Shown one piece after another: positions 2,832-33,532 of a stretch of DNA of 33,532 nt. The notes beneath the pieces were generated by a model. That model had not been told where the DNA came from. It saw only the letters and a program-made list of their open reading frames with translations, and made no database searches. The number at the start of each line of letters is the position of its first letter. The stretch's first letter is position 1. The stretch lies in IMG/VR virus record IMGVR_UViG_648276653_000018, one strand, 5' to 3'. A program made the translations under genes and the position numbers. Origin of the DNA: a virus. Taxonomy: Duplodnaviria; Heunggongvirae; Uroviricota; Caudoviricetes.

Positions 2832-3685
2832 GCACCATCCTGAAATGGGCGGGTAATAAAACCGCCATTATGTCCGAACTGAAAAAACATCTTCCTGCTG
2901 GCCCGCGACTGGTTGAACCTTTCGCGGGTTCTTGTGCTGTGATGATGGCGACGGATTACCCCAGCTATCTGGTTGCGGATATTAATCCTGATTTAATCAA
3001 CCTCTATAAAAAGGTTTCTGCTGATTGTGAGGCGTTTATATCTCGCGCCAGAGTTTTATTTGAGAACGCAAACAGGGAGGTGGCTTATTACAACATAAAG
3101 CAGGAGTTTAATTACTCAACTGAAATTACTGATTTCATGAAAGCGGTATATTTCCTGTATCTCAATCGTCACGGTTACCGTGGGTTATGTCGCTATAACA
3201 AGAGCGGGCATTTCAACATTCCCTACGGTAATTATAAAAATCCGTATTTCCCTGAAAAAGAAATTCGCGCATTTGCAGAGAAAGCCCAGCGAGCAACGTT
3301 TATCTGCGCCAGCTTTGATGAAACGCTGGCGATGCTGCAGGTGGGGGATGTGGTGTATTGCGATCCGCCTTATGACGGTACGTTTTCCGGTTATCACACT
3401 GACGGCTTCACTGAAGATGACCAGTATCACCTGGCATCCGTTCTTGAACATCGGTCATCAGAAGGACATCCCGTCATTGTTTCTAACAGTGACACATCCC
3501 TGATCCGTTCGCTGTATCGCAATTTTACTCACCACTACATCAAGGCAAAACGCAGCATCGGTGTGGCAGCTGGTGATAGTAAATCTGCAACAGAAATCAT
3601 TGCTGTTTCCGGGGCGCGCTGCTGGGTGGGATTTGATCCTTCGCGTGGCGTAGATAGTTCTGCTGTGTACGAGGTGCGTGTATGA
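2828..3685 (+). CDS. dam: DNA adenine (N6) methyltransferase, Dam-like
   Basis: N-terminal [15 protein letters not shown]...PFAGSCAV (AdoMet-binding) and catalytic DPPY motif ([11 protein letters not shown]). Confidence 0.85.
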
Positions 3686-6094
3686 GTCATGACGATATGA
3701 GCAACTCTAGCGGCTTTAACGAGGCCGCTGCATCATTTTCATGGAACGGCCCGAAAAAGGCCATTAACCCTTATCTGGACCCGGCGGAATTTGCGCCGGA
3801 GTCTGCACTTTCAAACCTGATCACTCTGTATGCTGCCGATAACGAGCAGGAACAACTGCGCCGCGAGGCACTGAGTGAGCAGGTCTGGGAGCGTTATTTC
3901 TTTAATGAATCCCGTGATCCTGTCCAGCGCGAAATGGAGCAGGATAAGCTCATTAGCCGCGCAAAGCTTGCGCATGAGCAGCAGCTTTTTAACCCGGACA
4001 TGGTCATTCTGGCAGATGTCAGCGCCCAGCCTACCCACATCAGCAAGCCGCTGATGCAACGTATCGAATACTTCAGCAGCCTGGGCAGGCCAAAGGCTTA
4101 TTCCCGCTATTTGCGTGAGACGATTAAGCCATGTCTGGAGCGACTGGATTGTGTACGCGACAGTCAGCTATCCGCTTCTTTCCGTTTTATGGCAAGCCAT
4201 CAAGGGCTTGAGGGCCTGCTGATCCTGCCTGAAATGAGTCAGGATCAGGTAAAACGCCTGTCCACCCTGGTAGCTGCGCATATGAGCATGTGCCTTGATG
4301 CCGCTTGTGGCGATTTATATGCCACCGATGACGTTAAGCCAGAAGAAATCCGCAAGACATGGGAAAAGGTGGCAGCGGAAACCCTGCGACTGGATGTTAT
4401 CCCGCCTGCGTTTGAGCAACTCCGCCGGAAAAGAAACCGCCGCAAACCCGTGCCCTATGAACTCATACCGGGTTCGCTGGCACGTATGCTTTGCGCCGAC
4501 TGGTGGTATCGAAAATTGTGGAAGATGCGTTGCGAATGGCGGGAAGAGCAGTTGCGTGCTGTCTGCCTGGTCAGCAAAAAAGCATCTCCCTATGTCAGCT
4601 ATGAAGCCGTGACGCATAAACGTGAGCAGCGCCGTAAGTCGCTGGAGTTTTTCCGTTCTCATGAACTGGTGAACGAAGACGGCGACACGCTGGATATGGA
4701 AGATGTGGTAAACGCCAGCAGCAGCAACCCGGCACATCGCCGCAATGAGATGATGGCCTGTGTTAAAGGTCTGGAGCTTATCGCAGAAATGCGTGGTGAC
4801 TGCGCCGTTTTCTACACTATCACCTGTCCGTCACGTTTCCATTCCACGCTCAACAACGGCAGACCCAACCCGACCTGGACAAATGCGACGGTAAGACAAA
4901 GCAGCGATTATCTGGTCGGCATGTTTGCTGCATTTCGTAAGGCTATGCACAAAGCCGGGTTGCGCTGGTATGGCGTGCGGGTGGCTGAGCCGCACCATGA
5001 CGGTACTGTGCACTGGCATCTCATGTGTTTCATGCGCAAAAAAGACCGCCGCGCCATTACTGCATTGTTGCGTAAGTTTGCCATCCGTGAAGACCGCGAG
5101 GAACTGGGTAATAACACTGGTCCACGCTTTAAATCTGAGCTGATAAACCCACGCAAAGGAACACCGACAAGCTACATCGCGAAATACATCAGTAAGAACA
5201 TTGACGGGCGTGGTCTGGCTGGCGAGATCAGCAAGGAAACGGGTAAATCCCTGCGTGATAATGCTGAATACGTTAATGCTTGGGCGTCTCTGCATCGTGT
5301 TCAGCAATTCCGCTTCTTTGGCATTCCGGGGCGTCAGGCTTACCGTGAACTGCGATTGCTGGCTGGTCAGGCGGCAAGGCAACAGGGGACAAAAAGCAGG
5401 TGCGCCGGTACTGGATAACCCGCGCCTTGATGCCATCCTGGCTGCTGCTGATGCTGGTTGTTTTGCCACCTACATCATGAAGCAGGGCGGCGTACTGGTT
5501 CCCCGCAAATATCACCTTATCAGAACAGCTTATGAAATTAACGAAGAGCCGACTGCTTATGGCGATCACGGTATTCGTATTTATGGCATCTGGTCACCCA
5601 TTGTACAGGGCAAGATTTGCACTCATGCAGTGAAGTGGAAAATGGTTCGTAAGGCCGTTGACGTTCAGGAGGCGGCAGCCGACCAGGGCGCTTGCGCCCC
5701 TTGGACTCGTGGCAATAACTGTCCCCTTGCTGAAAATTTGAACCAACAAGGGAAAGACAAATCAGCTGATGGGGACTCCAGAACGGATATTACCCGTATG
5801 AATGACAAGGAGTTGCACGATTACCTGCACAGTATGAGCAAAAAAGAGCGCCGGGAACTGGCTGCAAGGTTACGCCAGGTGAAACCGAAACGGCGTAAAG
5901 ACTACAAACAGCGAATTACGGACCATCAGCGACAGCAGCTCGTCTATGAACTGAAGTCCAGGGGATTTGATGGCAGCGAGAAAGAAGTCGATTTGCTCCT
6001 TCGCGGCGGCAGTATTCCGTCAGGAGCAGGCCTGCGTATCTTCTATCGGAACCAGCGTCTGAAGGAAGATGATAAGTGGCGGAACCTGTATTAA
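3682..6094 (+). pseudogene. A: replication initiation protein A (rolling-circle nickase), split by a 1-nt frameshift in an A5 run at 5391-5395; fragments 3682-5418 and ~5387-6094
   Basis: Two overlapping same-strand ORFs (578 aa and 297 aa) whose junction lies at acAAAAAgcagg; combined length ~800 aa fits the P2/186 gene A size and position. Could equally be a sequencing error. Confidence 0.6.
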
Positions 6095-6204: not shown

Positions 6205-6446
6205 TGGTTATGTATACAGTATTGTTTTGGTGTCATAGGAGGAAAGATGCAGGACTATTTTTTGGAGTCTTTGAAGCTCCAGCGCATTGATTTTTTTTCT
6301 TAAGCTTGTAGCGGCTAGTGAGTGTAGTGATGAAGAGAAGGGGCTGGCTCTGCAGTGGGTTTCTGAATTGACTGATGAACTCATGGCAAAAATCAGAAGC
6401 CACGAATACAACCGCTCAATGGATGTCATCAGCTGAGGTGACTTTT

Positions 6447-6680
6447 ATGCGCATTGAAATAATGATCGATAAAGAGCAGAAGATTAGCCAGTCTACCCTG
6501 GACGCACTTGAATCCGAGCTTTACCGCAATCTGCGCCCCCTGTATCCCAAAACGGTAATTCGCATTCGCAAAGGTAGCTCTAACGGTGTGGAACTAACCG
6601 GACTGCAACTGGATGAAGAAAGAAAACAAGTGATGAAAATTATGCAGAAGGTGTGGGAGGACGACAGCTGGCTGCATTAA
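6447..6680 (+). CDS. DinI-family protein (Tum/antirepressor-like, SOS-inducible)
   Basis: MRIEIMIDKEQ...ELYRNLRPLYP...QKVWEDDSWLH resembles E. coli DinI (MRIEVTIAK...ETWESADDWF); GAGGTG RBS; LexA box upstream. An in-frame start at 6375 is possible. Confidence 0.75.
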   Translation: MRIEIMIDKEQKISQSTLDALESELYRNLRPLYPKTVIRIRKGSSNGVELTGLQLDEERKQVMKIMQKVWEDDSWLH

Positions 6681-6872: not shown

Positions 6873-7208
6873 TTACGAATGATCATTCTGTTTAGTCTTC
6901 ATGAGAAAATCCCGAATCTTTGCCAAGTTTGAATTTTCGGGGATTGAATCCATGTACGGATCACGCTCAAACACTAATTGCTCAGATTCAACGAAAGCCT
7001 GCCACTCTAATGGGTCTAGCTCAAATCCCATTGCTGTCATATCACTTTCATCTTCCCCCTCGATCCAGTGGACTAAATAAAACAATTCATCATCAGGAGA
7101 ATCATCCTCACCATCAACAATATCAACATCGGTTACAGTGATACGTAGGGTGGGATCGATTTTTGAGACATAAATTCCTAACTGTGGTATAGGGGGAATA
7201 TTGTTCAT
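6873..7208 (-). CDS. hypothetical strongly acidic small protein (cargo gene in variable region)
   Basis: 111 aa ORF with AGGAG RBS 7 nt upstream of ATG; rich in D/E (e.g. DVDIVDGEDDSPDDELF, EGEDESD); no recognisable catalytic motif. Confidence 0.6.
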   Translation of the reverse strand: MNNIPPIPQLGIYVSKIDPTLRITVTDVDIVDGEDDSPDDELFYLVHWIEGEDESDMTAMGFELDPLEWQAFVESEQLVFERDPYMDSIPENSNLAKIRDFLMKTKQNDHS

Positions 7209-7520
7209 GGAAACTCCTTTTATTGGTGTTTGCTATTTGAATAAAAATACGCCAAACAGAGTGTTAACTGTGAATATGGAAAGAATCGTTGTAAGTACCC
7301 CGCTTAGGTGTCCCATTCTATTTTAGAGGTTCTCGTGCATATGGATTATGTTATCTGAAAGTTAACTTCCGCTTCCCGTTCACAGCGAACATTCATCTTT
7401 GTAAACCCGTATGATCCGTTTTTCAAGTGGCCATTCAGATACGGATTTTCACTTCCTTGACAGTGCATGACTATGCTGCATGAAATCGCATGATCGATTG
7501 AGGATCGTCTTTGCTCAGAT

Positions 7521-7546
7521 CCGCCAGAACTGGCGGGCTTTTGCTC
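7521..7546 (+). terminator. Rho-independent terminator-like hairpin (CCGCCA-GAAC-TGGCGG followed by GCTTTTG)
   Basis: Perfect 6-bp GC-rich stem, 4-nt loop, T-rich tail on the plus strand. Confidence 0.5.
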
Positions 7547-7587
7547 ATGTCATGCATGTGCATGAAAACCACTGCATAAAGCGGGCA

Positions 7588-7606
7588 GGCGTGGCGGGGA
7601 TACGAG
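7588..7606. other. candidate cos (cohesive-end) site: GGCGTGGCGGGGATACGAG
   Basis: First 13 nt identical to my recollection of the 186 cos 5' end (GGCGTGGCGGGGAAAGCAT; P2: GGCGAGGCGGGGAAAGCAC); lies between the A and Q genes where cos is expected. Confidence 0.35.
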
Positions 7607-7736
7607 CGCGCGCTAACTCTTGGCTTTGTTTCATAATCAAAAATGTGATCATTGAGATTATTCTTAAATTTGTGTTTGTCTATGAAATATCATTTCGCTT
7701 AACATTGTTTGAGTTAGGACTACATGAGAATAAAGA

Positions 7737-8312
7737 ATGCTTTTACCCGTAAGTATTACATCGTGTGGCTTGTATCACCCCTACTGGCATTTGGGAGAGC
7801 GCAACCCTCATAGCGATGAACTATCAAGGCAGATGATGGATTTTAAGGATGAAAATAATCGTAATCATCAAAGGGCCATTAACCGTTTTTCTCGATTAGC
7901 TATAGATAAGGTTGGGCGGTTAGTAATCAGAGGTGGCGGTGGGCGTTTTGTTGAGTCTCCTTTTTCGATAGCAGTTGTCCCGTCTCACACTGAAGGCAGA
8001 ATTTCACCGGCTTTGATTGAGGTCGCCGAGCGAATCGTAAATGTTCACCGTCGGGGCATTGTTGATTGCTGTTTGGAAAGAACACGCACTGTTCCTAGCG
8101 CACATCGTGAAGGTGGAGATCGCTCAATTACTGGTCACATGTCTAGTATCAGAGTTAGGGGTGGTAACCTCATGGGGCGAAATGTGTTACTACTAGATGA
8201 TGTTAAAACAACAGGCGGTAGTTTGTCTGCGTGTTTTTATTTACTGGAGTCTGCAGGAGCTGGAGTTATAATGCCATTAGCTCTGCTAGAAACTGCAAAC
8301 TATGAGGAGTAG
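7737..8312 (+). CDS. phosphoribosyltransferase (type I PRTase)-domain protein; candidate toxin/effector of a two-gene defence cassette
   Basis: PRPP-binding loop motif VLLLDDVKTTGGSL near C-terminal third; AT-rich codon usage unlike phage core; start ambiguous (ATG 7737 or ATG 7833). Confidence 0.7.
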   Translation: MLLPVSITSCGLYHPYWHLGERNPHSDELSRQMMDFKDENNRNHQRAINRFSRLAIDKVGRLVIRGGGGRFVESPFSIAVVPSHTEGRISPALIEVAERIVNVHRRGIVDCCLERTRTVPSAHREGGDRSITGHMSSIRVRGGNLMGRNVLLLDDVKTTGGSLSACFYLLESAGAGVIMPLALLETANYEE

Positions 8313-8316
8313 CAAA

Positions 8317-9276
8317 GTGCACTCAGAAGAATTAAAAAATACACTTGGATTAGCTATTCAAATCGGGAAGCTAGCATCTGATCAAAGTGTATTAAAATTC
8401 TTTGAGCTTATCGATTTTGATGTTATTCGTGATATACGCGACTTAACTGAGATGGTTAATAGCCACGGGTTTCTAAAAGATAAAATATCTGAGACTGATT
8501 TTCTAATAGCGAACGCTGAATTGGAGAACCACCATGTTAATGGTGTGGAGCTAATACCATATGGGTCTGAATTCTATCCTCTTAGTTTAGCTTTTACTCC
8601 TAATCCACCATCAATTCTCTACATAAAAGGGGATAAAAGTATACTCAAAGAATTGCCGGGTGTCGCAATTGTAGGATCCCGTGATACCTCCCCTGCAGGG
8701 GAAGAAATAACGAGGCGGATCACTAATCAGATAGTGTCTGCTGGGTATATTGTTGTAAGTGGGTTAGCAATAGGCACTGATGCGAATGCTCACAAGGCAA
8801 CGTTACAGGCAAAAGGAAAAACCATTGCTGTCTTGGCGCATGGTCTTGAGGAGGCTAAGCCGAAGCAAAACAGTCGACTTGCTCAAGAGATTCTGGATAA
8901 AGGTGGTGCATGGATTTCTGAGTATCCTATGGGTCGGCCGGCCCAGAAACAATCATTTGTACAAAGAAATCGGATACAAGTTGGATTATCTGCAGGTTCA
9001 ATTTTAATCGAGGCTGCGTTAAATAGCGGAACGATAACTCAAGCTGAGTTTGCAAATAAGGCGAAAAGACCAGTGTTTGCGGTTGTACCTCACCTACCTA
9101 ATAATCCGCTTAATCTTAATTGTGAGGGAACAGTTGATTTAGTTAAGAGCAACATGGCTAGAGCGCTAAAAACAAAACGGGATTATGATGATGTGATTAT
9201 GATCATAAATGAGTCCCGGGAGTATTTGTTAGAGCTAAAATGGCCAGGGAAACAGAGTACATTAGACTTGATTTAA
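8317..9276 (+). CDS. DprA/Smf-like (SLOG-superfamily Rossmann) protein; candidate partner/antitoxin of the PRTase gene
   Basis: Motifs VAIVGSRDTSPAG, SGLAIGTDANAHKATL, KTIAVLAHGLEE, ISEYP, FVQRNRIQVGLSAGSILIEAALNSGT match the DprA Rossmann-fold pattern; GTG 8317 preceded by GAGGAG RBS lying inside the 3' end of the PRTase gene (ATG 8302 is an alternative start). Confidence 0.7.
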   Translation: MHSEELKNTLGLAIQIGKLASDQSVLKFFELIDFDVIRDIRDLTEMVNSHGFLKDKISETDFLIANAELENHHVNGVELIPYGSEFYPLSLAFTPNPPSILYIKGDKSILKELPGVAIVGSRDTSPAGEEITRRITNQIVSAGYIVVSGLAIGTDANAHKATLQAKGKTIAVLAHGLEEAKPKQNSRLAQEILDKGGAWISEYPMGRPAQKQSFVQRNRIQVGLSAGSILIEAALNSGTITQAEFANKAKRPVFAVVPHLPNNPLNLNCEGTVDLVKSNMARALKTKRDYDDVIMIINESREYLLELKWPGKQSTLDLI

Positions 9277-9300: not shown

Positions 9301-10329
9301 CTAAATTTGATATCTCTCGAATTTTATAATTTCTTCACCGCTCCAATGATTAAATTCTTTCATTCTTTTTTGTAATGGTAATAATTCATTTTTCACAAAT
9401 ACCTTACTAGCTTTTTCTACATCCCCAAATCCCCCAACATTATTAGGCATTATCCCCATCATTTGTGGCGGCACACGATGCGCTGCCATCATGTCATCCC
9501 GACTCACGTTCTTGATGTTAAGAAATTCATCCTTCGCCGCGACTTCTGACAACGGGATGATCTGAAGCCCGTCCTTTTTGCCGTTAGGCGAGTACATAAA
9601 CAGGTTGCGGAAGTTGCCAGGGCCTTTGGCGCTTTTCATCGCATTGCGGAGGTTGTTCACATCCTCCTGGTTCTGCGCGGCATCGGTCATGTACATGATG
9701 AAGCCTGCATGACTGCCGTTAATGTAATACTTCCGGCGGAACAGCGTGGCGGACTCGTTGAGCAGGGCTGACGGAATGGCAGAAAGATAACCTGGCAGGC
9801 CGTAGATCTCCTGGTTGATGTCCGGTTCCATCAGATGAAAAATGCTGCCTTTCGTGAACTGATACGGCTGGGTTGTCATACCGTATTGCACAAACCAGTA
9901 GGTATCCAGGTCTAACCCGCGTCGGGTGTATTTTGCCAGAGCAGGCTCAAGGGCGATAACTTCACCGAAGCGGTTCGTGCGTTTCTCCAGGTAGGCGTTA
10001 CCAAATACCAGATAGTCCTGCACAAAACGTGAAAAAGCCTGCTGGCTGAGCAGCGGGTGAGGGATGTAGGTACTGGTCAGAATATTGCATTTCACCGCAA
10101 TCGGTGAGCTGTGATGCACGGCGGCGCGAAAGGTGCGCGCCAGCCCGTCAAAACTCACTGGCGGCTCATACCATCGATCTGTCTGTACGCATTCCACATA
10201 GTCCAGCAGTTCACGGCGGTCCAGAACAGGAACGGGATCGCCGAAGCTGAATGCTTCGGCTGAACTCTGGCTTTTATGCTGGATCTGATTCATCGCCGCT
10301 ACGCGGTTTTTTTTACTCTTTCCCATCAA
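9301..10329 (-). CDS. Q: portal protein (P2 gpQ-like)
   Basis: 342 aa ORF, minus strand, directly upstream of the terminase ATPase gene as in P2; size matches gpQ. Confidence 0.85.
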   Translation of the reverse strand: MMGKSKKNRVAAMNQIQHKSQSSAEAFSFGDPVPVLDRRELLDYVECVQTDRWYEPPVSFDGLARTFRAAVHHSSPIAVKCNILTSTYIPHPLLSQQAFSRFVQDYLVFGNAYLEKRTNRFGEVIALEPALAKYTRRGLDLDTYWFVQYGMTTQPYQFTKGSIFHLMEPDINQEIYGLPGYLSAIPSALLNESATLFRRKYYINGSHAGFIMYMTDAAQNQEDVNNLRNAMKSAKGPGNFRNLFMYSPNGKKDGLQIIPLSEVAAKDEFLNIKNVSRDDMMAAHRVPPQMMGIMPNNVGGFGDVEKASKVFVKNELLPLQKRMKEFNHWSGEEIIKFERYQI

Positions 10330-12092
10330 AAAATCTCCACAATATTGCTGGTATTGGCGGATTCGCCCTGCAGCGGTTCGTTAAACAATGCGTGCATCGT
10401 TGCCCAGGCCAGATCGGCGTGGCTGGCTTCTTCGCTGCGGCTGGCTTCATAGGTCGGGCGGTTGCCGCTGGCGGTGGTGGCGCGACGGATTGCCATAAAG
10501 GACTGCGCTATGTCGGTGTGCCCGGCGTCAAACTCCAGGCGGCGGTGGCTAATAATGTCGTAGGCCTTGAGTACCAGGGCGTTTTTAACGTTGGGGTTGT
10601 AGACAAACTCCCGGACGGCAGGAAAAAACGCTTTCACGTTCTCGTAAACCCCGTGACCGACGCCGGTTGAGTCGATACCGATGTATGTTACGTTGTACTG
10701 TTCAGTCAGTTTTTTGATGGCGTCAGCCTGGGCGCGGAAGTCCATCCCGCGCCACTGGTGACGCTCAAGAATGCGGAACTTACCGCCCGGCACGGCTGGC
10801 GGTGCCACCACCACGCACCCGGCGCTGTCGCCGTTTTGCGTACCTTTTGCCGGGTCATAACCGATCCACACTTCGCGCCAGCCAAACGGGCGCAGGGCCA
10901 GTGCATGAAAGTCGCTCCAGACTTCCCAACTGTCCACCATGCACGCCTGCAGCTCGCTGAGCGGGAACACGGACGCGAGATCGTCCACAAACTCGCACAT
11001 CAGCAGGTTCTGGTATTCGTCCGGGCTGTACTCCATGCGCAACTGATCGAGGTCGAAAAGGTTACATCCGCCGCGCACTGCATCTTCCACGGTGACTATC
11101 TGGCGGTATTGCCCGTCTGCGCACAGCAGGCCGGGGGCCAGATTGCTGTGGGACAGGTCGATGTCCACCTTATCGGCTTTGTTACGCCCACGGTTGAACA
11201 GCGCACCAGACCAGAACGGATAAGCACTGTGTGTCAGGCTGGATGGCGTGGAAAAATAGGTTTGTCGCCATTTTTTGTGAATAGCCATACCGGAAGCCAC
11301 TTTGCGCAGCTCCTGGAATTTCGGTATCCAGAAATATTCATCCAGATACAGGTTGCCGTGGTAACTCTGGGCCGTGCGGGCATTGGTGCCGAGGAAGTAA
11401 AGCGTGGCCCCGTTGGGAAGCACCATCGGATCGCCTTTCAGCTCCACCTCCACTTCTTTGGCGAAGTCGATGATGTACTGTTTAAAGACGTGGGCCTGTG
11501 CCTTACTGGCGGAAAGGAAAATCTGGTTACGTCCGGTAAGCAGGGCGTCAATCAGGGCTTCACGGGCAAAGTAAAAGGTCGCGCCGATCTGGCGTGACTT
11601 CAGCAGGTTGCGGATGCGGTTGGTTTTTCCGGCTTCCCACCAGTGGCGCTGGTAGTTGAACATGGAGGAATGGAAGATTTCTTCCAGCTTCTCAATCTGC
11701 TCATCGGTGAAAACATTCTTTTCCGGCTGACGGCGCGGGCCTTTGTTGCGGTTGGCGACGTTAGGGTTTAAGTCGGCTTCGTTGCCGCCATTGTTAAACT
11801 TGCCGATCCGCGCGTGGCGTTCCGACTGGCGCGCCAGCAGGTCAATCTCTTTGAAATCTTTCCCTTCTTTGTGCTCCTTCATAATGAGCTGGCAGTAGCG
11901 TGCGGCGGTGGTGAGCTGCATCTGATCCAGCGGCCCATAGTCACCCCACTTGTCGCGTTTCTTCCAGCTGTGAACGGTTGCAACTTTCTCGCCCAGCATT
12001 TCAGCAATGCGGGCTACACGGTATCCCTGAAAGTACAGCAGCATGGCCTGCCGACGGGGATCGAGATCTGCGGGTGTCAGTGTGGTGTTCAT
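10326..12092 (-). CDS. P: terminase large (ATPase) subunit (P2 gpP-like)
   Basis: 588 aa ORF overlapping Q by 4 nt; size and position match P2 gpP. Confidence 0.85.
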   Translation of the reverse strand: MNTTLTPADLDPRRQAMLLYFQGYRVARIAEMLGEKVATVHSWKKRDKWGDYGPLDQMQLTTAARYCQLIMKEHKEGKDFKEIDLLARQSERHARIGKFNNGGNEADLNPNVANRNKGPRRQPEKNVFTDEQIEKLEEIFHSSMFNYQRHWWEAGKTNRIRNLLKSRQIGATFYFAREALIDALLTGRNQIFLSASKAQAHVFKQYIIDFAKEVEVELKGDPMVLPNGATLYFLGTNARTAQSYHGNLYLDEYFWIPKFQELRKVASGMAIHKKWRQTYFSTPSSLTHSAYPFWSGALFNRGRNKADKVDIDLSHSNLAPGLLCADGQYRQIVTVEDAVRGGCNLFDLDQLRMEYSPDEYQNLLMCEFVDDLASVFPLSELQACMVDSWEVWSDFHALALRPFGWREVWIGYDPAKGTQNGDSAGCVVVAPPAVPGGKFRILERHQWRGMDFRAQADAIKKLTEQYNVTYIGIDSTGVGHGVYENVKAFFPAVREFVYNPNVKNALVLKAYDIISHRRLEFDAGHTDIAQSFMAIRRATTASGNRPTYEASRSEEASHADLAWATMHALFNEPLQGESANTSNIVEIF

Positions 12093-24860: not shown

Positions 24861-24994
24861 CGGTTGATGATCTGGTGGCAGATATCGCCACCATTTTTCA
24901 CTGGCCGCCATCCGTTACTGACGTTATGCCGCTGACCGAAGTGCTGGAATGGCGGTATAAAGCGATTCAGAGAAGCGGGGCCAACGATGAGTGA
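24558..24994 (+). CDS. E+E': tail assembly chaperone E+E' produced by programmed -1 ribosomal frameshift at T TTT TTG (24815-24821)
   Basis: Slippery heptamer TTTTTTG; -1 frame is open from the slip site to TGA at 24992-24994 (extension ...VDDLVADIATIFHWPPSVTDVMPLTEVLEWRYKAIQRSGANDE). Confidence 0.75.
24815..24821 (+). promoter_or_regulatory. programmed -1 frameshift slippery sequence TTTTTTG for E/E'
   Basis: Seen directly; conserved mechanism in P2-family tail chaperone genes. Confidence 0.75.
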
Positions 24995-27900
24995 TAATAA
25001 CCTGCGCCTGCAGGTCATTCTTAATGCGGTTGACAAACTCACCCGCCCATTCCGTGCTGCACAGGCCAGTTCGAAAGAGCTGGCTGGCGCAATCAGAAAC
25101 TCCCGTGACGCATTAAAGCAACTCAATCAGGCGGGTAACAACCTGGAAAAATTTCGCAAGCTGCAGGCCGATAACAAAAAGTTAGGCGACAGGCTGAACT
25201 ATGCCAGACAGAAGGCAAATTTGCTTAGTTCTGAGCTGGAAGCGATGGAACAACCATCACAAAGGCATCTTGTGGCTTTAGGTCGGCAAACGCTGGCAGT
25301 CCAACGCCTGGAAGAACAACAAAAATATTTGCAGAAGCAAACGGCGCTTGTGCGTGCAGAACTGTACCGGGCGGGAATTTCTGCGAAAGATGATGCGGGA
25401 GCAACTGCCCGTTTAGCCCGTGAAACATCACGTTATAACCAGGAATTGTCGAAACAGGAGGCGCGGCTGAAGCGACTGGGGGAAGCTCAGCGCAGGATGA
25501 ATGCAGCGCGTGCCAGTTATGCCCGTTCGCTGGAGGTGCGCGATCGCATCGCAGGAGCCGGAGCCACTACTACGGCTGCAGGGCTGGCAATGGGGACGCC
25601 AGTGATGGCGGCAGTAAAAAGCTATACCAGCATGGAAGATGCCATGAAAGGTGTGGCAAAGCAGGTCAATGGTCTGCGTGACGATAATGGCATCCGCACT
25701 GCACGTTTTTATGAAATGCAGGATGCCATCAAAGCTGCCAGCGAACAGTTGCCGATGGAAAACGGTGCGGTGGACTTCGCTGCACTGGTTGAAGGTGGTG
25801 CGCGTATGAACGTCGCAAACCCTGACGACAGCTGGGAAGACCAGAAACGTGACCTGCTGGCCTTCGCCAGTACGGCAGCAAAGGCGGCAACAGCCTTTGA
25901 GCTGCCAGCGGATGAACTGTCAGAAAGTCTGGGGAAAATCGCCCAGCTCTACAAAATACCAACCCGCAATATTGAACAGCTCGGCGATGCGCTGAACTAT
26001 CTGGATGATAACGCCATGTCGAAAGGGGCGGACATCATTGATGTGATGCAACGTCTGGGCGGTGTGGCTGACCGTCTGGATTATCGTAAAGCGGCGGCAC
26101 TGGGTTCCACCTTTCTGACACTGGGCGCTGCGCCGGAGGTTGCAGCCAGTGCAGCAAACGCGATGGTGCGTGAATTGTCCATTGCCACCATGCAAAGCAA
26201 GAGTTTCTTTGAAGGAATGAATCTGCTGAAACTCAATCCTGAAGTGATTGAAAAGCAGATGACGAAGGATGCGATGGGAACTATCCAGCGCGTGCTGGAG
26301 AAGGTGAACGCACTGCCGCAGGACAAGCGTCTGTCTGCCATGACCATGTTGTTTGGTAAAGAGTTTGGCGATGACGCGGCGAAACTGGCAAACAACCTGC
26401 CGGAACTGCAGCGTCAGTTAAAACTGACAGCGGGCAATGATGCGCTCGGCTCCATGCAGAAAGAATCCGACATTAACAAGGATTCACTTTCTGCGCAGTG
26501 GTTGCTGGTCAAAACCGGAGCGCAGAACACCTTCAGCAGCCTGGGCGAAACGCTGCGCCAGCCGCTGATGGATATTCTGTACACGGTGAAAAGCGTCACG
26601 GGGGCGTTGCGTCGCTGGGTGGAAGCTAACCCGGAACTGACAGGCACACTGATGAAAGCATCGGCTGTTGTGGCTGCGGTGACCGTCGGCCTCGGCACCT
26701 TAGCGGTGGCGCTGGCTGCAGTGCTGGGGCCGCTGGCAGTGATCCGTCTGGGATTCTCTGTGCTGGGTATCAAAACGTTACCTTCCGTTACGGCAGCAGT
26801 AACTCGAACCAGCAGCGCGTTGTCCTGGCTGGCTGGCGCACCACTGGTACTGCTGCGACGCGGGCTTGCTTCATCGGGCAACGCTGCGGGGTTACTTACT
26901 GCACCGTTGTCATCTTTGCGCCGCACGGCATCACTGACGGGAAATGTCCTGAAAACTGTAGCAGGTGCGCCGGTTGCACTTTTGCGGTCTGGATTATCCG
27001 GTTTACGTGCTGTTGCTGTGATGTTTATGAATCCTCTGGCGGTACTGCGCGGTGGACTGGTCGCCGCAGGCACGGTGCTGCGAGTACTGGCATCTGGTCC
27101 ACTGGCGATGCTGCGCGTTGCCCTGTATGCCGTATCTGGTCTGTTAGGTGCTCTGCTCAGTCCGATAGGTCTTGTGGTTACTGCACTGGCGGGCGTGGCG
27201 CTGGTTGTCTGGAAATACTGGCAACCCATCACCGCATTTCTTGGTGGCGTGGTGGAAGGATTCAAAGCGGCGGCAGGTCCCGTCAGTGCAGCATTCGAAC
27301 CGCTTAAGCCCGTGTTCCAGTGGATTGGCGACAAAGTACAGGCGCTGTGGGGCTGGTTTACTGATCTGCTGACGCCCGTTAAGTCGACCTCTGCCGAACT
27401 GCAGAGTGCAGCGGCAATGGGGCGGCGATTCGGGGAGGCACTGGCGGAAGGGCTGAATATGGTCATGCATCCGCTGGACTCCCTGAAATCCGGCGTTTCC
27501 TGGTTGCTGGAGAAGCTCGGCATTGTCAGTAAAGAGGCCGCAAAGGCAAAACTGCCGGAAAGCGTGACGCGTCAGCAACCTGCGACGGTGAATGCAGACG
27601 GTAAAGTGATGATGCCATCGGGTGGTTTTCCATCATGGGGATATGGCTTTGCGGGGATGTATGACAGCGGCGGCTATATCCCGCGCGGGCAGTTTGGCAT
27701 CGTCGGTGAAAACGGGCCGGAAATTGTTAACGGCCCGGCAAATGTGACCAGCCGGAGAAATACAGCTGCACTGGCTGCCGTTGTTGCCGGAATGATGGGC
27801 GTTGCTGCCGCGCCTGCAGAGCTTCCACCGTTGCACCCTTTGGCACTTCCCGCGAAAGGCGGCGAAGCGATGGTGAGTCGTGCAGCCACTGTGCCGCCCG

Positions 27901-28064
27901 TTCAACGGATTGAGGCACCGATGCAGATCATCATTCAGACGCAGCCAGGACAAAGTGCGCAGGATATTGCGCGGGAGGTGGCCCGCCAGCTTGATGAACG
28001 TGAACGCAGGCTGAAGGCAAAAGCCAGGAGTAACTACAGCGATCAGGGGGGATACGACGCATGA
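24987..28064 (+). CDS. T: tail tape measure protein T
   Basis: 1025 aa, coiled-coil N-terminal part, Ala/Gly-rich hydrophobic central repeats; position after E/E'. Confidence 0.9.
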   Translation: MSDNNLRLQVILNAVDKLTRPFRAAQASSKELAGAIRNSRDALKQLNQAGNNLEKFRKLQADNKKLGDRLNYARQKANLLSSELEAMEQPSQRHLVALGRQTLAVQRLEEQQKYLQKQTALVRAELYRAGISAKDDAGATARLARETSRYNQELSKQEARLKRLGEAQRRMNAARASYARSLEVRDRIAGAGATTTAAGLAMGTPVMAAVKSYTSMEDAMKGVAKQVNGLRDDNGIRTARFYEMQDAIKAASEQLPMENGAVDFAALVEGGARMNVANPDDSWEDQKRDLLAFASTAAKAATAFELPADELSESLGKIAQLYKIPTRNIEQLGDALNYLDDNAMSKGADIIDVMQRLGGVADRLDYRKAAALGSTFLTLGAAPEVAASAANAMVRELSIATMQSKSFFEGMNLLKLNPEVIEKQMTKDAMGTIQRVLEKVNALPQDKRLSAMTMLFGKEFGDDAAKLANNLPELQRQLKLTAGNDALGSMQKESDINKDSLSAQWLLVKTGAQNTFSSLGETLRQPLMDILYTVKSVTGALRRWVEANPELTGTLMKASAVVAAVTVGLGTLAVALAAVLGPLAVIRLGFSVLGIKTLPSVTAAVTRTSSALSWLAGAPLVLLRRGLASSGNAAGLLTAPLSSLRRTASLTGNVLKTVAGAPVALLRSGLSGLRAVAVMFMNPLAVLRGGLVAAGTVLRVLASGPLAMLRVALYAVSGLLGALLSPIGLVVTALAGVALVVWKYWQPITAFLGGVVEGFKAAAGPVSAAFEPLKPVFQWIGDKVQALWGWFTDLLTPVKSTSAELQSAAAMGRRFGEALAEGLNMVMHPLDSLKSGVSWLLEKLGIVSKEAAKAKLPESVTRQQPATVNADGKVMMPSGGFPSWGYGFAGMYDSGGYIPRGQFGIVGENGPEIVNGPANVTSRRNTAALAAVVAGMMGVAAAPAELPPLHPLALPAKGGEAMVSRAATVPPVQRIEAPMQIIIQTQPGQSAQDIAREVARQLDERERRLKAKARSNYSDQGGYDA

Positions 28065-30187: not shown

Positions 30188-31873
30188 TTATCCTAATCCT
30201 GGCCATACCATGACGATGATTGTCCCTGCCAGCGTCAGCAGGACGTTGGCGATTGCGTAGGTGCCCGCATAGCCCAGCGCAGGGATGTTACTGCGAGCTG
30301 TATCACTGATGATCTCCATTGCCGGCGCGCAGGTGCGTGCGCCCATCATTGCGCCGAACAACAGTGCGCGGTTCATTCGCAATACATAAGCACCGAACAA
30401 GAAACAGATAACCACGGGCACAAGACTGACAATTAATCCGGCAATCAACATCTGACCGCCAATCGCGCCCAGGCCGTTATTAATACCGCTACCGGCGCTC
30501 AGACCAACGCCTGCCATAAACACCATCAAGCCGAACTCTTTCACCATGCTTAATGCACCTTGCGGAATGTAACCGAAGGTCGGGTGGTTAGCACGCATAA
30601 AGCCCAGCATAATTCCGGCGAATAACAACCCGGCAGCGTTCCCCATGCCGAAACTGAATGTGCTGAACTGGAAGGTGATCATCCCGATCATCAGCCCAAT
30701 AACAAAGAAGGCGCAGAATGCCAGCAGGTCAGTGACCTGGCTGTGAATCGAGATAAAGCCGATGCGATCGGCGATGGTTTTTACGCGGCGGGCATCGCCG
30801 CTGACTTGTAAAACGTCACCTTTGTTAAGCACGACGTTGTCATCTATCGGCATCTCAATCTGGCTACGAATGACGCGGTTAAGGAAGCAACCGTGATCGG
30901 TCAACTTCAGTTGTGCGAGACGTTTACCTACAGCGTTATGGTTTTTAACGACCACTTCTTCAGTGACGATACGCATGTCGAGAAGGTCACGATCGAAAAC
31001 TTCTTTACCGTTACGGAAGCTGGGATCGAGTCGGGCATGGGCGTCGGGATAGCCTACCAACGCTATTTCATCGCCCATTTGTAGCACGGCATCACCGTCT
31101 GGATTTGCCAGAATCCCGTTACGTCGAATACGTTCAATGTAGCAGCCGGTTTGTCGATAAATACCCAGTTCACGCAGATTTTTGCCGTCGGTCCAGGCCA
31201 CCAGTTCCGGGCCGACGCGATAGGCGCGGATCACCGGTAAATAAACCTTACGGTTGGCATCAGTGTCCAGGCCACGTTCGCGGGCGATTTGCTGGGCGCT
31301 GGTCTGTAAGTCCTGATGCTGCAATTTCGGCAAGTAACGCGCACCAACAATCAAACTCACCAGACCGATTAAATAGGTTAAGGCATACCCGAGGCTCAGA
31401 TTATCCAGTGCCAGTGAGAGCTGCCTGCTTTCCATGCCGGAATGACGCAGTGTATCGCCAGCACCGACCAGAACCGGTGTCGACGTCATAGAGCCTGCTA
31501 ACATACCGGCCGTCAGGCCAATATCCCAGCCAAACAGCTTACCTAACCCTAAGGCGATCACCAGCGCACTGCCAACCATCACCAGTGCTAACATTAGGTA
31601 ATTTTTCCCATCGCGAAAAAAAATGGAAAAAAAGTTCGGTCCGGCTTCGACCCCGACGCAGAAAATAAACAGCATAAAGCCAAGATTAAGCGCATCGGTG
31701 TTAATGCTGAAATGTTGTTGGCCTAATAACAGCGATACGACTAAAACGCCAATGGAATTACCCAGTTGGATCGAACCAAGTCGTAACTTTCCGAGACATA
31801 GCCCAAGCGCGAGGACCACAAATAATAACAGAATGTAATTCCCATTTAACAATTCGGCGACGTTTATATTCAC
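30188..31873 (-). CDS. ybjL: putative transport protein YbjL (AAE/YidE-family duplicated-domain transporter)
   Basis: 561 aa [32 protein letters not shown]...; matches E. coli YbjL from memory. Confidence 0.85.
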
Positions 31874-32142
31874 GGAGGCTAACTTCTTGTTTACTAGTAA
31901 GCTGTTGAAAGAAATGGTAATTTACGATAATGTTTTTTACCAGAATTCAGGGCGCAGATTCATTCAGCGCACCTAAACGATAGTAAAGTAACAATATATT
32001 TTACTAGTGTAATCACATTAGGTATCAACGGCTATATGAATTGCGTTGGCCTATATTAGCATGGAATGCGAAGCGGCTTTATCTTACTGAACGCCACACT
32101 GGCGAAAAATGTGTTCGATAGACGCAGTGTCAGGAGGAACGA

Positions 32143-32520
32143 GTGAAACATAAACAACGTTGGGCGGGGGCAATCTGCTGTTTTGTCCTCTTCATTGTGG
32201 TGTGCCTTTTTCTGGCGACGCACATGAAAGGCGCTTTTCGGGCTGCCGGGCATCCTGAAATCGGCTTGCTATTTTTCATTCTTCCTGGAGCAGTCGCCAG
32301 CTTCTTTTCACAGCGTAGAGAAGTCCTGAAACCTCTGTTTGGCGCAATGCTGGCGGCACCCTGTTCGATGCTCATTATGCGGCTGTTTTTTTCACCGACG
32401 CGCTCATTCTGGCAAGAGCTGGCATGGTTACTAAGCGCGGTGTTCTGGTGTGCGCTGGGGGCACTGTGTTTCTTATTTATCAGTAGTTTGTTTAAACCAC
32501 AGCACAGAAAAAATCAGTAA
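32143..32520 (+). CDS. ybjM: inner membrane protein YbjM
   Basis: 125 aa hydrophobic ORF; matches E. coli ybjM position and size. Confidence 0.8.
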   Translation: MKHKQRWAGAICCFVLFIVVCLFLATHMKGAFRAAGHPEIGLLFFILPGAVASFFSQRREVLKPLFGAMLAAPCSMLIMRLFFSPTRSFWQELAWLLSAVFWCALGALCFLFISSLFKPQHRKNQ

Positions 32521-32541
32521 AGCCCTCAACGCGAGGGCTTG
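32520..32541. terminator. bidirectional terminator hairpin between convergent ybjM and grxA (AGCCCTC-aacgc-GAGGGCT)
   Basis: Perfect 7-bp inverted repeat immediately after ybjM stop and before grxA stop. Confidence 0.55.
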
Positions 32542-32549
32542 TCAGACGA

Positions 32550-32807
32550 TCAGGCGTCCAGATTTTCTTTCACCCATGCAGCAAAATCGGTATAGCCGCC
32601 GATATGTTGCTGATCGACAAAAATCTGCGGCACGGTTTCTACGGGTTTACCTGCCTTTTGTTGTAGATCTTCTTTAGTGATCCCTTCCGCACGAATATCT
32701 ACATACTGATACTGAAAATCATCGCGTTCATTGCTCAATTTCTCAGCCAGATCTTTTGCACGCACACAGTAAGGGCAACCCGAACGACCAAAAATAACGG
32801 TTTGCAT
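32550..32807 (-). CDS. grxA: glutaredoxin 1
   Basis: MQTVIFGRSGCPYCVRAKDLAEKL... with CPYC active site; matches E. coli GrxA. Confidence 0.9.
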   Translation of the reverse strand: MQTVIFGRSGCPYCVRAKDLAEKLSNERDDFQYQYVDIRAEGITKEDLQQKAGKPVETVPQIFVDQQHIGGYTDFAAWVKENLDA

Positions 32808-32966
32808 TATTTCTCTCCTCATAGATTTATGCCTGTAATGATCACGCTAAAATGTATTCGCTGAAAGTAGGTTTAACCTGTTGCATTAATTGCTAAAAGC
32901 TATAACTGTTAAACACAATACAGTGAAAAGTTTTAGACTGAAGGCTCACTTTGCAGAGGGAAGCGT

Positions 32967-33320
32967 ATGCGCGCGATCGGTAAATTGCCTAAAGGCGTGT
33001 TGATACTGGAATTTATCGGAATGATGCTACTGGCGGTGGCGCTGCTGTCGGTAAGCGACTCCCTGTCGCTGCCTGAGCCATTTTCTCGGCCAGAAGTGCA
33101 GATTCTGATGATTTTTCTCGGTGTTTTGCTCATGCTTCCCGCTGCGGTGGTGGTTATTCTTCAGGTGGCAAAACGTCTTGCCCCACAGCTGATGAACCCA
33201 TTTCCGAAGCGCAGCGTGAGGCGATTATTAACAGCGCCCGTGCGACGTCCAGTTCCAGTTTTTTGCAGTGCAGTAGCATTATTCGCATTACCGACAAAGC
33301 GTTACGTGAAGAACTGGTGA
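32967..33320 (+). CDS. ybjC: YbjC membrane protein with altered 3' end: the ORF runs out of frame into nfsA sequence after a deletion
   Basis: MRAIGKLPKGVLILEFIGMMLLAVALLSV...APQLMN matches YbjC; the tail PFPKRSVRRLL... is nfsA DNA read in the wrong frame. Confidence 0.7.
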   Translation: MRAIGKLPKGVLILEFIGMMLLAVALLSVSDSLSLPEPFSRPEVQILMIFLGVLLMLPAAVVVILQVAKRLAPQLMNPFPKRSVRRLLTAPVRRPVPVFCSAVALFALPTKRYVKNW

Positions 33321-33532
33321 CGCTGACCGGCGGGCAAAAACACGTAGCGCAAGCGGCGGAGTTCTGGGTGTTCTGTGCCGACTTTAACCGCCATTTACAG
33401 ATCTGTCCGGATGCTCAGCTCGGCCTGGCGGAACAACTGTTGCTCGGTGTCGTTGATACGGCAATGATGGCGCAGAATGCATTAATCGCAGCGGAATCGC
33501 TGGGATTGGGCGGGGTATATATCGGCGGCCTG
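33197..33532 (+). pseudogene. nfsA: nfsA (oxygen-insensitive NADPH nitroreductase A) lacking its first ~19 codons and start codon; continues beyond window end
   Basis: Frame from 33197 encodes PISEAQREAIINSARATSSSSFLQCSSIIRITDKALREELVTLTGGQKHVAQAAEFWVFCADFNRHLQ..., i.e. NfsA from about residue 21; no MTPTIELICGHRSIRHF-encoding sequence present upstream. Confidence 0.7.

What the first reader, a model, noticed from the sequence alone, without database searches (positions are those of the whole stretch)
33150..33250. Deletion at a GATGAAC microhomology fuses ybjC to nfsA and removes the nfsA start
ybjC reads normally up to ...APQLMN (ctGATGAAC) and then continues directly into nfsA codon ~21 (…GATGAACccatttccgaagcg = DEPISEA) in a different frame. 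In the reference arrangement as I recall it, ybjC has about 17 more codons, followed by an intergenic spacer and the nfsA N-terminus MTPTIELICGHRSIRHFTDEP. The GATGAAC heptamer is present in both native contexts (LMN in ybjC, TDEP in nfsA), which is the signature of a microhomology-mediated deletion. The result is a ybjC ORF with a nonsense tail and an nfsA lacking its start and first ~19 residues, so NfsA is probably inactive. Loss of NfsA is a classical first-step route to nitrofuran (nitrofurantoin/furazolidone) resistance.
Basis: partly seen in the sequence, partly recalled or inferred. Interest (0 to 1): 0.6.

Follow-up and report, generated by a model that had tools for sequence, protein, structure and literature searches.

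The report
Recurrent 101-bp deletion knocking out nfsA
This E. coli lacks 101 bases between two copies of a 10-base repeat, which fuses ybjC out of frame to nfsA and removes the start of the main nitrofuran-activating enzyme; it is an ordinary kind of first-step nitrofuran resistance mutation, notable only because the same deletion has arisen repeatedly in unrelated strains.

Summary
Window 32960-33532 is identical to E. coli K-12 ybjC-nfsA except for one clean 101-bp gap. The repeat at the junction is 10 bp (CTGATGAACC), not 7. K-12 has two copies 101 bp apart, and one copy remains at 33189-33198. The deletion removes ybjC codons 78-95 with its stop, and the nfsA ribosome-binding region, ATG and codons 1-17. 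These include the HRSIR segment (residues 11-15) and Arg15, which bind cofactor and drug. YbjC residues 1-77 now run into nfsA out of frame (117-aa ORF, 32967-33320). No usable start codon remains before nfsA codon 43.

It is not an assembly artefact. The same junction occurs in 7 of 5,426 complete E. coli genomes, where RefSeq marks both genes as pseudogenes, and on about 160 public contigs. It sits on at least six YbjC backgrounds, two of which have fully identical intact relatives, so this is a recurrent slippage hotspot. Three carriers checked have intact nfsB, so this is a first-step genotype, for which the literature reports only about a 2-fold MIC rise.

The kind of lesion is well known, and I found no paper describing this allele. 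Interest is low. The phenotype is untested, and nfsB in this strain lies outside the window.

The parts
32823..32966 (+). grxA-ybjC intergenic region, which should hold the ybjC-nfsA operon promoter (SoxS/MarA/Rob-regulated). It is unchanged from K-12.
   Evidence: Zero differences from K-12 over window 31400-33532 apart from the deletion. The promoter is known from the literature (review PMC11936445 citing Paterson et al.) and was not mapped here.
32967..33320 (+). Fused ORF of 117 aa: YbjC residues 1-77 plus a 40-residue out-of-frame tail read from nfsA DNA, ending at TGA 33318-33320.
   Evidence: ORF list, translation, Pfam DUF1418 match over residues 1-86 at E=8.7e-36. The exact protein is on 73 public contigs.
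32967..33197 (+). Native part of ybjC, codons 1-77 (through ...APQLMN).
   Evidence: Identical to K-12 ybjC nt 1-231.
33189..33198 (.). Deletion junction: the single retained copy of the 10-bp direct repeat CTGATGAACC. The exact breakpoint cannot be placed within these 10 bp.
   Evidence: K-12 has two copies at L001 1790 and 1891, spaced 101 bp apart, and the window has one.
33198..33317 (+). Forty-codon nonsense tail of the fusion ORF (PFPKRSVRRLLTAPVRRPVPVFCSAVALFALPTKRYVKNW), which is nfsA DNA read in the ybjC frame.
   Evidence: Translation. The repeat is in phase 0 in ybjC and phase 1 in nfsA.
33191..33532 (+). nfsA remnant, codons 19-132 in the nfsA frame, without a start codon or ribosome-binding region. 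It is cut at codon 132 by the contig end.
   Evidence: Translation DEPISEAQREAII.... It is 100% identical to K-12 nfsA nt 55-396. The in-frame stop upstream is at 33074-33076, and no ATG, GTG or TTG occurs before 33263.
33263..33265 (+). First canonical start-like codon in the nfsA frame (TTG, codon 43). Gene callers make a 198-aa truncated NfsA from it. No Shine-Dalgarno match lies upstream.
   Evidence: gene calls in L009-L012.
33317..33320 (+). GTGA overlap: GTG (nfsA codon 61) overlaps the TGA stop of the fusion ORF. This is the only plausible re-initiation point, and the product would lack residues 1-60.
   Evidence: 180-aa gene calls in L013, L015 and L016.

Best explanation
This is a genuine 101-bp chromosomal deletion. 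It was produced by misalignment between two copies of a 10-bp direct repeat (CTGATGAACC), one at ybjC codons 75-78 and one at nfsA codons 18-21. This is the classic short-direct-repeat, replication-slippage type of deletion, which leaves one repeat copy and nothing else.

ybjC and nfsA overlap and are co-transcribed from the promoter upstream of ybjC. The mRNA is therefore presumably still made, but three things change:
1. Ribosomes translating ybjC run into nfsA in the wrong frame and stop at 33318-33320, giving a 117-aa YbjC' protein with a 40-residue nonsense tail.
2. The nfsA translation-initiation region, ATG and codons 1-17 are gone, and no start codon remains before codon 43, so full-length NfsA cannot be made.
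3. Any product restarted at codon 43 or 61 would lack Arg15, the 11-15 phosphate-binding segment and Ser41, and should be inactive.

The allele is therefore an nfsA null. The expected consequence is loss of the major oxygen-insensitive nitroreductase and a modest, first-step decrease in nitrofuran susceptibility. Clinical resistance would need a second hit, typically in nfsB.

The site is a recurrent hotspot: the identical junction has arisen independently on several E. coli and Shigella backgrounds.

Shown: the deletion, the repeat, the frames, the missing start, and the recurrence. Inferred: the slippage mechanism, continued transcription, loss of enzyme activity, and the MIC effect.
For: - Clean 101-bp gap with no other difference from K-12.
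- Two repeat copies in K-12 and one in the window. It is the longest perfect direct repeat in the locus.
- Gene overlap and coordinates; frames and fusion ORF.
- No start codon before codon 43 and no Shine-Dalgarno match at codon 43 or 61.
- The junction 40-mer, which wild-type sequence cannot seed, hits 7 of 5,426 complete genomes, all annotated as ybjC and nfsA pseudogenes.
- The exact fusion protein is on 73 contigs. There are 18 variants on about 160 contigs, including Shigella flexneri.
- At least six YbjC backgrounds share the identical junction, with linked changes on the nfsA side.
- The LHM10-1/CP52E haplotype has SNPs 129 bp left and 94 bp right of the junction and has 100%-identical intact relatives. 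The same is true of the K-12-like haplotype.
- Functional residues: Arg15 and Ser41 in nitrofurantoin binding (PMC8286842); residues 11-15 in phosphate binding (PMC10941799).
- Full-length NfsA is ordered over residues 1-240 in 1F5V and 7 other PDB entries.
- nfsA loss is the first step, with about a 2-fold MIC rise (PMC9890214).
Against: - There are no phenotype or expression data for this strain.
- The window ends at a contig end inside nfsA (codon 132), so the rest of nfsA, and nfsB, are unseen in this strain.
- The slippage mechanism is inferred from the junction anatomy alone. The interval between the repeats has no stabilising secondary structure (z=+1.28), so nothing beyond the repeat explains why this site is favoured.
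- Low-level re-initiation at the GTGA overlap cannot be excluded by sequence.
- Wan et al. (PMC8767348) found that isolates with a single nfsA or nfsB lesion often had lower MICs than they had predicted.
Confidence: 0.88

Rival explanations
1. The junction is an assembly or sequencing artefact: a collapse at a repeated 10-mer in a 2010-era draft assembly.
For: The source is a draft contig (ADWT01000014.1) that ends only 334 bp downstream of the junction.
Against: The identical junction is in 7 complete genomes from different laboratories, countries and years and on about 160 contigs from many projects. A 10-bp repeat is too short to collapse in an assembly built from reads of about 100 bp or more.
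Confidence: 0.02
2. The deletion arose once and spread between lineages by homologous recombination, rather than recurring at a hotspot.
For: Most carriers examined at the DNA level have a K-12-like local haplotype differing by 0-1 SNP in 1.86 kb, so several of them could share one origin.
Against: LHM10-1/CP52E carry the deletion on a haplotype with 21 SNPs in 1.86 kb, including sites 129 bp left and 94 bp right of the junction. That haplotype exists intact and 100% identical in other genomes. At least six YbjC backgrounds share the junction, with linked variation on both sides. Transfer would require repeated conversion tracts shorter than about 230 bp.
Confidence: 0.08
3. The mechanism is as in the best explanation, but the allele is neutral decay. 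It is seen repeatedly only because the site mutates often, not because nitrofurans or any other agent selected it.
For: - The source strains are Human Microbiome Project gut isolates with no recorded nitrofuran exposure (names).
- All three carriers checked keep intact nfsB.
- Single nfsA loss changes MIC only about 2-fold.
- Prevalence is low, at 7 of 5,426 genomes (0.13%).
- Some copies show further decay, a 1-nt loss in a T-run giving 102-aa variants.
Against: - A 9-bp repeat pair only 32 bp apart inside ybjC, which would not remove nfsA sequence, yields no deletion allele in 5,426 genomes. This is weak evidence because the numbers are small and the repeat is 9 rather than 10 bp.
- Carriers include multidrug-resistant clinical isolates and a Chinese pig isolate. 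My recollection is that these are settings where nitrofurans have been used.
- Other complete genomes carry independent IS1 or IS30 insertions in nfsA, which suggests the gene is a frequent target.
Confidence: 0.35
4. The remnant still yields an active nitroreductase by re-initiation at GTG codon 61 (GTGA stop-start overlap) or TTG codon 43, so the allele is a reduced-function allele rather than a null.
For: The fusion ORF's stop overlaps an in-frame GTG, an arrangement that can support termination-reinitiation. Gene callers predict 180-aa and 198-aa products.
Against: Such products lack Arg15, residues 11-15 and Ser41, plus FMN-contact residue 39. No Shine-Dalgarno match lies upstream of either codon. 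RefSeq treats the gene as a pseudogene.
Confidence: 0.04

Closest known systems
nfsA loss-of-function alleles of E. coli (first-step nitrofuran resistance: McCalla 1978; Whiteway 1998; Sandegren 2008; Wan 2021, PMC8767348)
   Same: It is the same gene and the same outcome class: truncation or start loss that prevents synthesis of NfsA. Wan et al. counted 164 partial nfsA sequences and 14 start-codon changes among 12,412 genomes. As in the published two-step model, carriers here have nfsA hit while nfsB is intact.
   Different: The lesions described in the papers I could read are point mutations, frameshifts, IS1/IS10 insertions and larger deletions. This exact 101-bp ybjC-nfsA junction and its recurrence were not found in any searchable paper. 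It also truncates the upstream gene ybjC.
Short-direct-repeat (slipped-misalignment, RecA-independent) deletions, e.g. the lacI deletion hotspots of Albertini et al. 1982 (my own knowledge, not checked here)
   Same: Two short perfect repeats about 100 bp apart, loss of one copy plus the interval, no added bases, and recurrence at the same site in independent lineages.
   Different: The mechanism is inferred from anatomy only. No palindrome or hairpin accompanies the repeats, and dependence on replication or RecA is untested.
IS-mediated disruption or deletion of nfsA and nfsB (IS1, IS10, IS30; PMC8767348, PMC10569738)
   Same: It is also a common natural route to nfsA inactivation. IS1 and IS30 insertions in nfsA are seen in other complete genomes matched here (H1-H4; H78-H79).
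   Different: There is no IS sequence or target duplication at this junction. The flanks are pure ybjC and nfsA sequence.

Membership tests
nfsA loss-of-function allele (first-step nitrofuran resistance determinant) | The affected gene is the nfsA orthologue in its native ybjC-nfsA-rimK context. | tested here: met
   100% identity to K-12 nfsA nt 53-396 with the ybjL-ybjM-grxA-ybjC context upstream. rimK and ybjN follow in carriers whose contigs continue.
nfsA loss-of-function allele (first-step nitrofuran resistance determinant) | The lesion prevents synthesis of full-length NfsA. | tested here: met
   The ATG, upstream initiation region and codons 1-17 are deleted. The upstream ORF enters in the wrong frame. 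There is no ATG, GTG or TTG before codon 43.
nfsA loss-of-function allele (first-step nitrofuran resistance determinant) | Residues needed for catalysis or cofactor binding are lost. | tested here: met
   The deleted residues 1-17 include H11-R15 and Arg15. The literature assigns these to phosphate, NADPH and nitrofurantoin binding (PMC8286842; PMC10941799).
nfsA loss-of-function allele (first-step nitrofuran resistance determinant) | Raised nitrofuran MIC or loss of nitroreductase activity, reversible by wild-type nfsA. | not testable with these tools
   This needs MIC testing, an enzyme assay and complementation in the source strain.
Clinically nitrofurantoin-resistant genotype (nfsA plus nfsB double loss, ribE deletion, or oqxAB) | A second lesion in nfsB (or ribE, or oqxAB) is present. 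| tested here: inconclusive
   nfsB is outside the window. In three complete-genome carriers of the same allele, nfsB is full-length and differs only at G66D, M75I and V93A, which are reported as neutral.
Short-direct-repeat slippage deletion | The parental sequence has two direct repeat copies bounding the lost segment, and the product keeps exactly one copy with no inserted bases. | tested here: met
   CTGATGAACC is at L001 1790 and 1891 in K-12 and occurs once at window 33189-33198. K-12 with the interval removed reproduces the window exactly.
Short-direct-repeat slippage deletion | Independent recurrence at the same site. | tested here: met
   Two DNA haplotypes each have identical intact relatives, and at least six protein backgrounds carry the junction.
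Short-direct-repeat slippage deletion | RecA-independent and replication-associated. | not testable with these tools
   This requires genetics, i.e. deletion frequency in recA and replication or exonuclease mutants.
IS-mediated deletion | An IS end or target-site duplication lies at the breakpoint. | tested here: not met
   The junction flanks are uninterrupted ybjC and nfsA sequence.

The most novel reading that the evidence does not exclude
The 101-bp ybjC-nfsA deletion is a positively selected, parallel-evolved allele and not just a mutational hotspot. On this reading it is a silent first-step nitrofuran-tolerance marker circulating in commensal, livestock and multidrug-resistant E. coli and Shigella that keep intact nfsB, leaving them one mutation away from clinical resistance. 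It would be detectable with a single 40-mer.
Probability: 0.3. Interest if true: 0.4.

Novelty: new member of a known kind. Interest (0 to 1): 0.2.

Why it matters
nfsA inactivation is the established first step towards nitrofurantoin and furazolidone resistance, so an nfsA-null strain needs only one further hit (usually nfsB) to become clinically resistant. This particular allele recurs at a fixed junction, which gives it modest practical value:
- It can be screened with one junction k-mer.
- It explains some of the "truncated nfsA" calls in genomic surveys.
- It offers a natural case for separating mutational bias from drug selection.

It does not reveal a new mechanism, gene or system.

Tried and rejected
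- **Hairpin-assisted slippage:** the wild-type interval folds no better than shuffled sequence (z=+1.28), and no inverted repeat brackets the repeats.
- **Control junctions at the two 9-bp repeats in the locus** (32-bp deletion in ybjC, 297-bp deletion in nfsA): zero genomes each. This is only weak evidence because the queries use the K-12 haplotype.
- **Literature search for the allele:**
  - "nfsA + nitrofurantoin + 101 bp" returned only a read-length mention.
  - "101-bp deletion", "ybjC + nfsA + deletion", "direct repeat" and "microhomology" returned nothing relevant.
  - The Wan 2021 text and supplements contain no 671-bp or 53-723 remnant entry in the parts held.
  - Whiteway 1998 (PMC107609) is not held. 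Sandegren 2008 did not turn up in the searches and was not looked up by id. So prior description in those papers cannot be excluded.
- **IS-mediated origin:** rejected, because there is no foreign sequence at the junction.
- **Assembly artefact:** rejected.
- **Ungapped SNP comparison with GCA_041363675 and GCA_949811765:** this gave hundreds of false differences from register shifts. Those assemblies also have split ybjM and rimK gene calls, so I excluded them.
- **tRNA at the prophage border:** none found.

Full report
**What is in the sequence**

The right end of the window holds ybjL (30188-31873, minus strand), ybjM (32143-32520), grxA (32550-32822, minus strand) and then an ORF at 32967-33320. 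That ORF starts as YbjC and ends in an unfamiliar tail.

A megablast of 32900-33532 against 5,426 complete E. coli genomes matched nearly all of them. The 633-base query spanned 734 bases in two pieces, which implies a 101-base gap in the window. The K-12 MG1655 region (L001) is annotated ybjC 1568-1855 and nfsA 1839-2561. The two genes therefore overlap by 17 nt and there is no spacer between them.

Aligning window 32960-33532 with L001 1561-2240 gives one 101-column gap and no other difference. Removing L001 1790-1890 from K-12 reproduces window 31400-33532 exactly, 2133 of 2133 positions.

**Anatomy of the junction**

K-12 has CTGATGAACC at L001 1790 (ybjC codon 75, phase 0) and again at 1891 (nfsA nt 53, codon 18, phase 1), 101 bp apart. 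The window has one copy at 33189-33198, with ybjC sequence on the left and nfsA sequence on the right.

The deletion has these effects:
- **ybjC:** it loses codons 78-95 and its stop.
- **nfsA:** it loses its initiation region, ATG and codons 1-17.
- **Fusion ORF:** it encodes YbjC 1-77 plus 40 out-of-frame residues and stops at TGA 33318-33320. It still matches Pfam DUF1418.
- **nfsA frame:** codons 19-132 read DEPISEAQREAII... to the end of the window.
- **Upstream of the remnant:** that frame is closed by a stop at 33074-33076.
- **Start codons:** there is no ATG, GTG or TTG before TTG at codon 43 (33263). The next is GTG at codon 61 (33317), which overlaps the fusion ORF's stop as GTGA. 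Neither has a Shine-Dalgarno match upstream.

**Is it real?**

I built a 40-mer centred on the junction (33174-33213). Wild-type sequence cannot seed it in megablast, because it offers at most 25 contiguous matches against a 28-base word.

The 40-mer hit 7 of 5,426 complete genomes:
- YJ4, M505 and M719 (Myanmar)
- LHM10-1 (pig, China)
- CP52E (Thailand)
- 700481 (Pakistan)
- isolate 23 (Spain)

In all seven, RefSeq marks ybjC as a pseudogene missing its C-terminus and nfsA as a pseudogene missing its N-terminus.

The wider public assemblies agree:
- The exact 117-aa fusion protein is indexed in 103 blocks of public assemblies and on 73 contigs.
- Its 90% cluster has 18 variants on about 160 contigs, including one labelled Shigella flexneri.
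- The last 3,566 bases of the window are identical to the end of contig ADWT01000014.1 (GCA_000179135.1).
- The source names attached to the protein are E. coli MS 124-1 and MS 84-1.

An assembly artefact is excluded.

**Recurrence**

Over 1.86 kb around the junction, five groups of carriers can be compared at the DNA level.

| Carriers | Differences from the window over 1.86 kb |
|---|---|
| Spanish isolate, one SRA assembly (ERR4034283), both HMP assemblies, K-12 with the deletion applied | 0 |
| Myanmar trio (YJ4, M505, M719) | 1 SNP |
| 700481 (Pakistan) | 1 SNP |
| A second SRA assembly (ERR3712704) | 1 SNP |
| LHM10-1 and CP52E | 21 SNPs, including sites 129 bp left (33060) and 94 bp right (33292) of the junction |

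The LHM10-1/CP52E haplotype exists intact and 100% identical in UTME-7, 6EVA and wlxctx60. The K-12-like haplotype exists intact in MG1655 and many others. The same 101 bp was therefore lost at least twice.

At the protein level, at least six YbjC backgrounds carry the identical ...QLMN|PFPKRS... junction:
- Residue 10 is G or S.
- Residues 20-21 are ML, TS or MS.
- Residues 31-32 are DS, DT, DP or GS.
- Linked differences also occur in the nfsA-derived tail.

A single origin spread by recombination would need repeated conversion tracts shorter than about 230 bp, which is unlikely.

**Mechanism**

The junction anatomy is that of a slipped-misalignment deletion between short direct repeats: two perfect repeats about 100 bp apart, one copy kept, and no filler bases. 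This inference rests on established knowledge of that class and was not tested here.

The interval has no stabilising secondary structure (minimum free energy -6.1 kcal/mol against a shuffle mean of -9.3, z=+1.28). No inverted repeat brackets the repeats.

Two other perfect repeats in the locus, both 9 bp, gave no deletion junction in complete genomes. One pair is 32 bp apart inside ybjC and the other is 297 bp apart inside nfsA. This fits the 10-bp/101-bp site being the preferred slippage point. It may also hint that loss of nfsA is what gets retained, but the numbers are too small to separate mutational bias from selection.

**Functional consequence (inferred)**

Transcription:
- ybjC and nfsA are co-regulated from a SoxS class I promoter upstream of ybjC (review PMC11936445 citing Paterson et al.).
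- That region is unchanged here, so transcription presumably continues.

Why active NfsA cannot be made:
- Arg15 lies in the hydrogen-bond network that binds nitrofurantoin and contacts the NADPH 2'-phosphate. Ser41 of the partner subunit is in the same network (PMC8286842).
- Residues 11-15 form a nucleotide-phosphate binding segment, and residue 39 contacts FMN (PMC10941799, citing Kobori 2001).
- Residues 1-240 are ordered in the eight NfsA crystal entries.
- A protein restarted at codon 43 or 61 would lack all of these residues.

The allele is therefore best read as an nfsA null.

Other effects:
- nfsA is also regulated post-transcriptionally by the small RNA SdsN137 (PMC7004380). From memory its pairing site lies near the nfsA translation start, which would be within the deleted segment. 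I did not verify this.
- About 600 nt of nfsA RNA downstream of 33320 is now untranslated. That could reduce rimK and ybjN expression by polarity, but this is speculation.

**Expected phenotype**

The literature agrees that nfsA is the first gene hit on the way to nitrofuran resistance (PMC8286842). It also shows that nfsA loss alone gives only about a 2-fold MIC rise, and that clinical resistance needs nfsB loss too (PMC9890214). Wan et al. found unexpectedly low MICs in isolates with a single lesion (PMC8767348).

nfsB is not in the window. In three complete-genome carriers from three haplotypes (YJ4, isolate 23 and LHM10-1), nfsB is full-length. The three proteins differ only at G66D, M75I and V93A, and these substitutions are reported as neutral (PMC10941799). 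Where it can be checked, then, the allele occurs as a first-step genotype and not as part of a double knockout.

**Comparison with what is known, and novelty**

The class of lesion (nfsA loss of function by truncation or start loss) and the mechanism class (short-repeat deletion) are both long established. I found no paper in the searchable library that describes this junction or its recurrence. The older primary papers, Whiteway 1998 and Sandegren 2008, were not available, so prior description cannot be excluded.

The allele is already visible in RefSeq as paired pseudogenes. I rate it a new member of a known kind, of low general interest. Its modest practical value is as a k-mer-detectable, recurrent first-step marker.

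**Limits**

There is no phenotype, no expression data and no read-level data. The window stops at a contig end at nfsA codon 132, and the cause is unknown. In the sibling assembly GCA_000179075.1 the remnant continues uninterrupted into rimK. Selection versus neutral recurrence remains unresolved.

Noticed in passing
window 33532 (end of window): The window ends exactly at the end of contig ADWT01000014.1 (GCA_000179135.1), inside nfsA at about nt 396 (codon 132). The sequence matches K-12 to the last base, so the cause of the break is unknown. It could be an assembly gap or an IS element inserted just beyond, which would be a second lesion. The sibling assembly GCA_000179075.1 continues normally into rimK.
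   Followed up: partly
window 1 to about 30029: About 30 kb of the window is a 186/P2-like prophage: CI-type repressor at 9-902 (minus strand), GpA replication protein at 3682-5418, portal and terminase at 9301-12092 (minus strand), and tape measure at 24987-28064. It is inserted in the rcdA(ybjK)-ybjL intergenic region. A carrier without the prophage (M719) matches the window only from 30030 onward. No tRNA gene lies at the border. The best complete-genome match is only about 97% identical.
   Followed up: partly
window 7737-9276 (+): A Shosta anti-phage defence pair sits just upstream of the prophage portal gene: ShosT-like at 7737-8312 (PADLOC E=3.7e-14) and ShosA-like at 8302-9276 (PADLOC E=2.8e-70; Pfam DNA_processg_A/DprA-like E=1.4e-60). 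From memory this position is a known cargo hotspot of P2-like phages.
   Followed up: partly
window 6375-6680 (+): A DinI-like protein (Pfam PF06183, E=1.2e-22) is encoded in the prophage's variable region. Neighbouring ORFs at 5201-6094, 6873-7208 (minus strand) and 7480-7752 have no Pfam or PADLOC match.
   Followed up: no
window 33317-33320: The fusion ORF's TGA stop overlaps an in-frame nfsA GTG (codon 61) as GTGA. This stop-start overlap could allow re-initiation of a product lacking residues 1-60. Gene callers annotate 180-aa or 198-aa truncated 'nitroreductases' from this remnant, which could be mistaken for intact genes in automated screens.
   Followed up: partly
L017 20112-37482 (E. 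coli YJ4, NZ_AP023230.2 747111-764481): In carrier YJ4, an IS26-bounded segment carrying an O89/O101/O162-type O-antigen cluster (wzm, wzt, glycosyltransferases, galE, galF, partial wcaM) replaces ybdF and ybdJ. It ends 178 bp upstream of an intact nfsB, and whether it affects nfsB expression is unknown.
   Followed up: no
hits H1-H4 and H78-H79: Several other complete E. coli genomes have IS1 or IS30 inserted in nfsA or ybjC-nfsA. Examples are LF3-1, BS15R-A, BDSF8-3, PEC389, VE-T9 and ET201. These are independent natural lesions of the same gene.
   Followed up: no
proteins P0008 and P0011; corresponds to the run of six T at about window 33257-33262: Two 102-aa variants of the fusion protein end ...VFAVQ. 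This is consistent with a secondary 1-nt loss in the run of six T within the nfsA remnant, i.e. further decay of an already dead gene. It could instead be a homopolymer sequencing error.
   Followed up: no
L011 (GCA_041363675.1) and L014 (GCA_949811765.1): These two carrier assemblies show split or shortened neighbouring genes (ybjM 96 aa, rimK in two pieces, ybjL split). This looks like indel-rich long-read assembly error. They were excluded from the SNP comparison.
   Followed up: no
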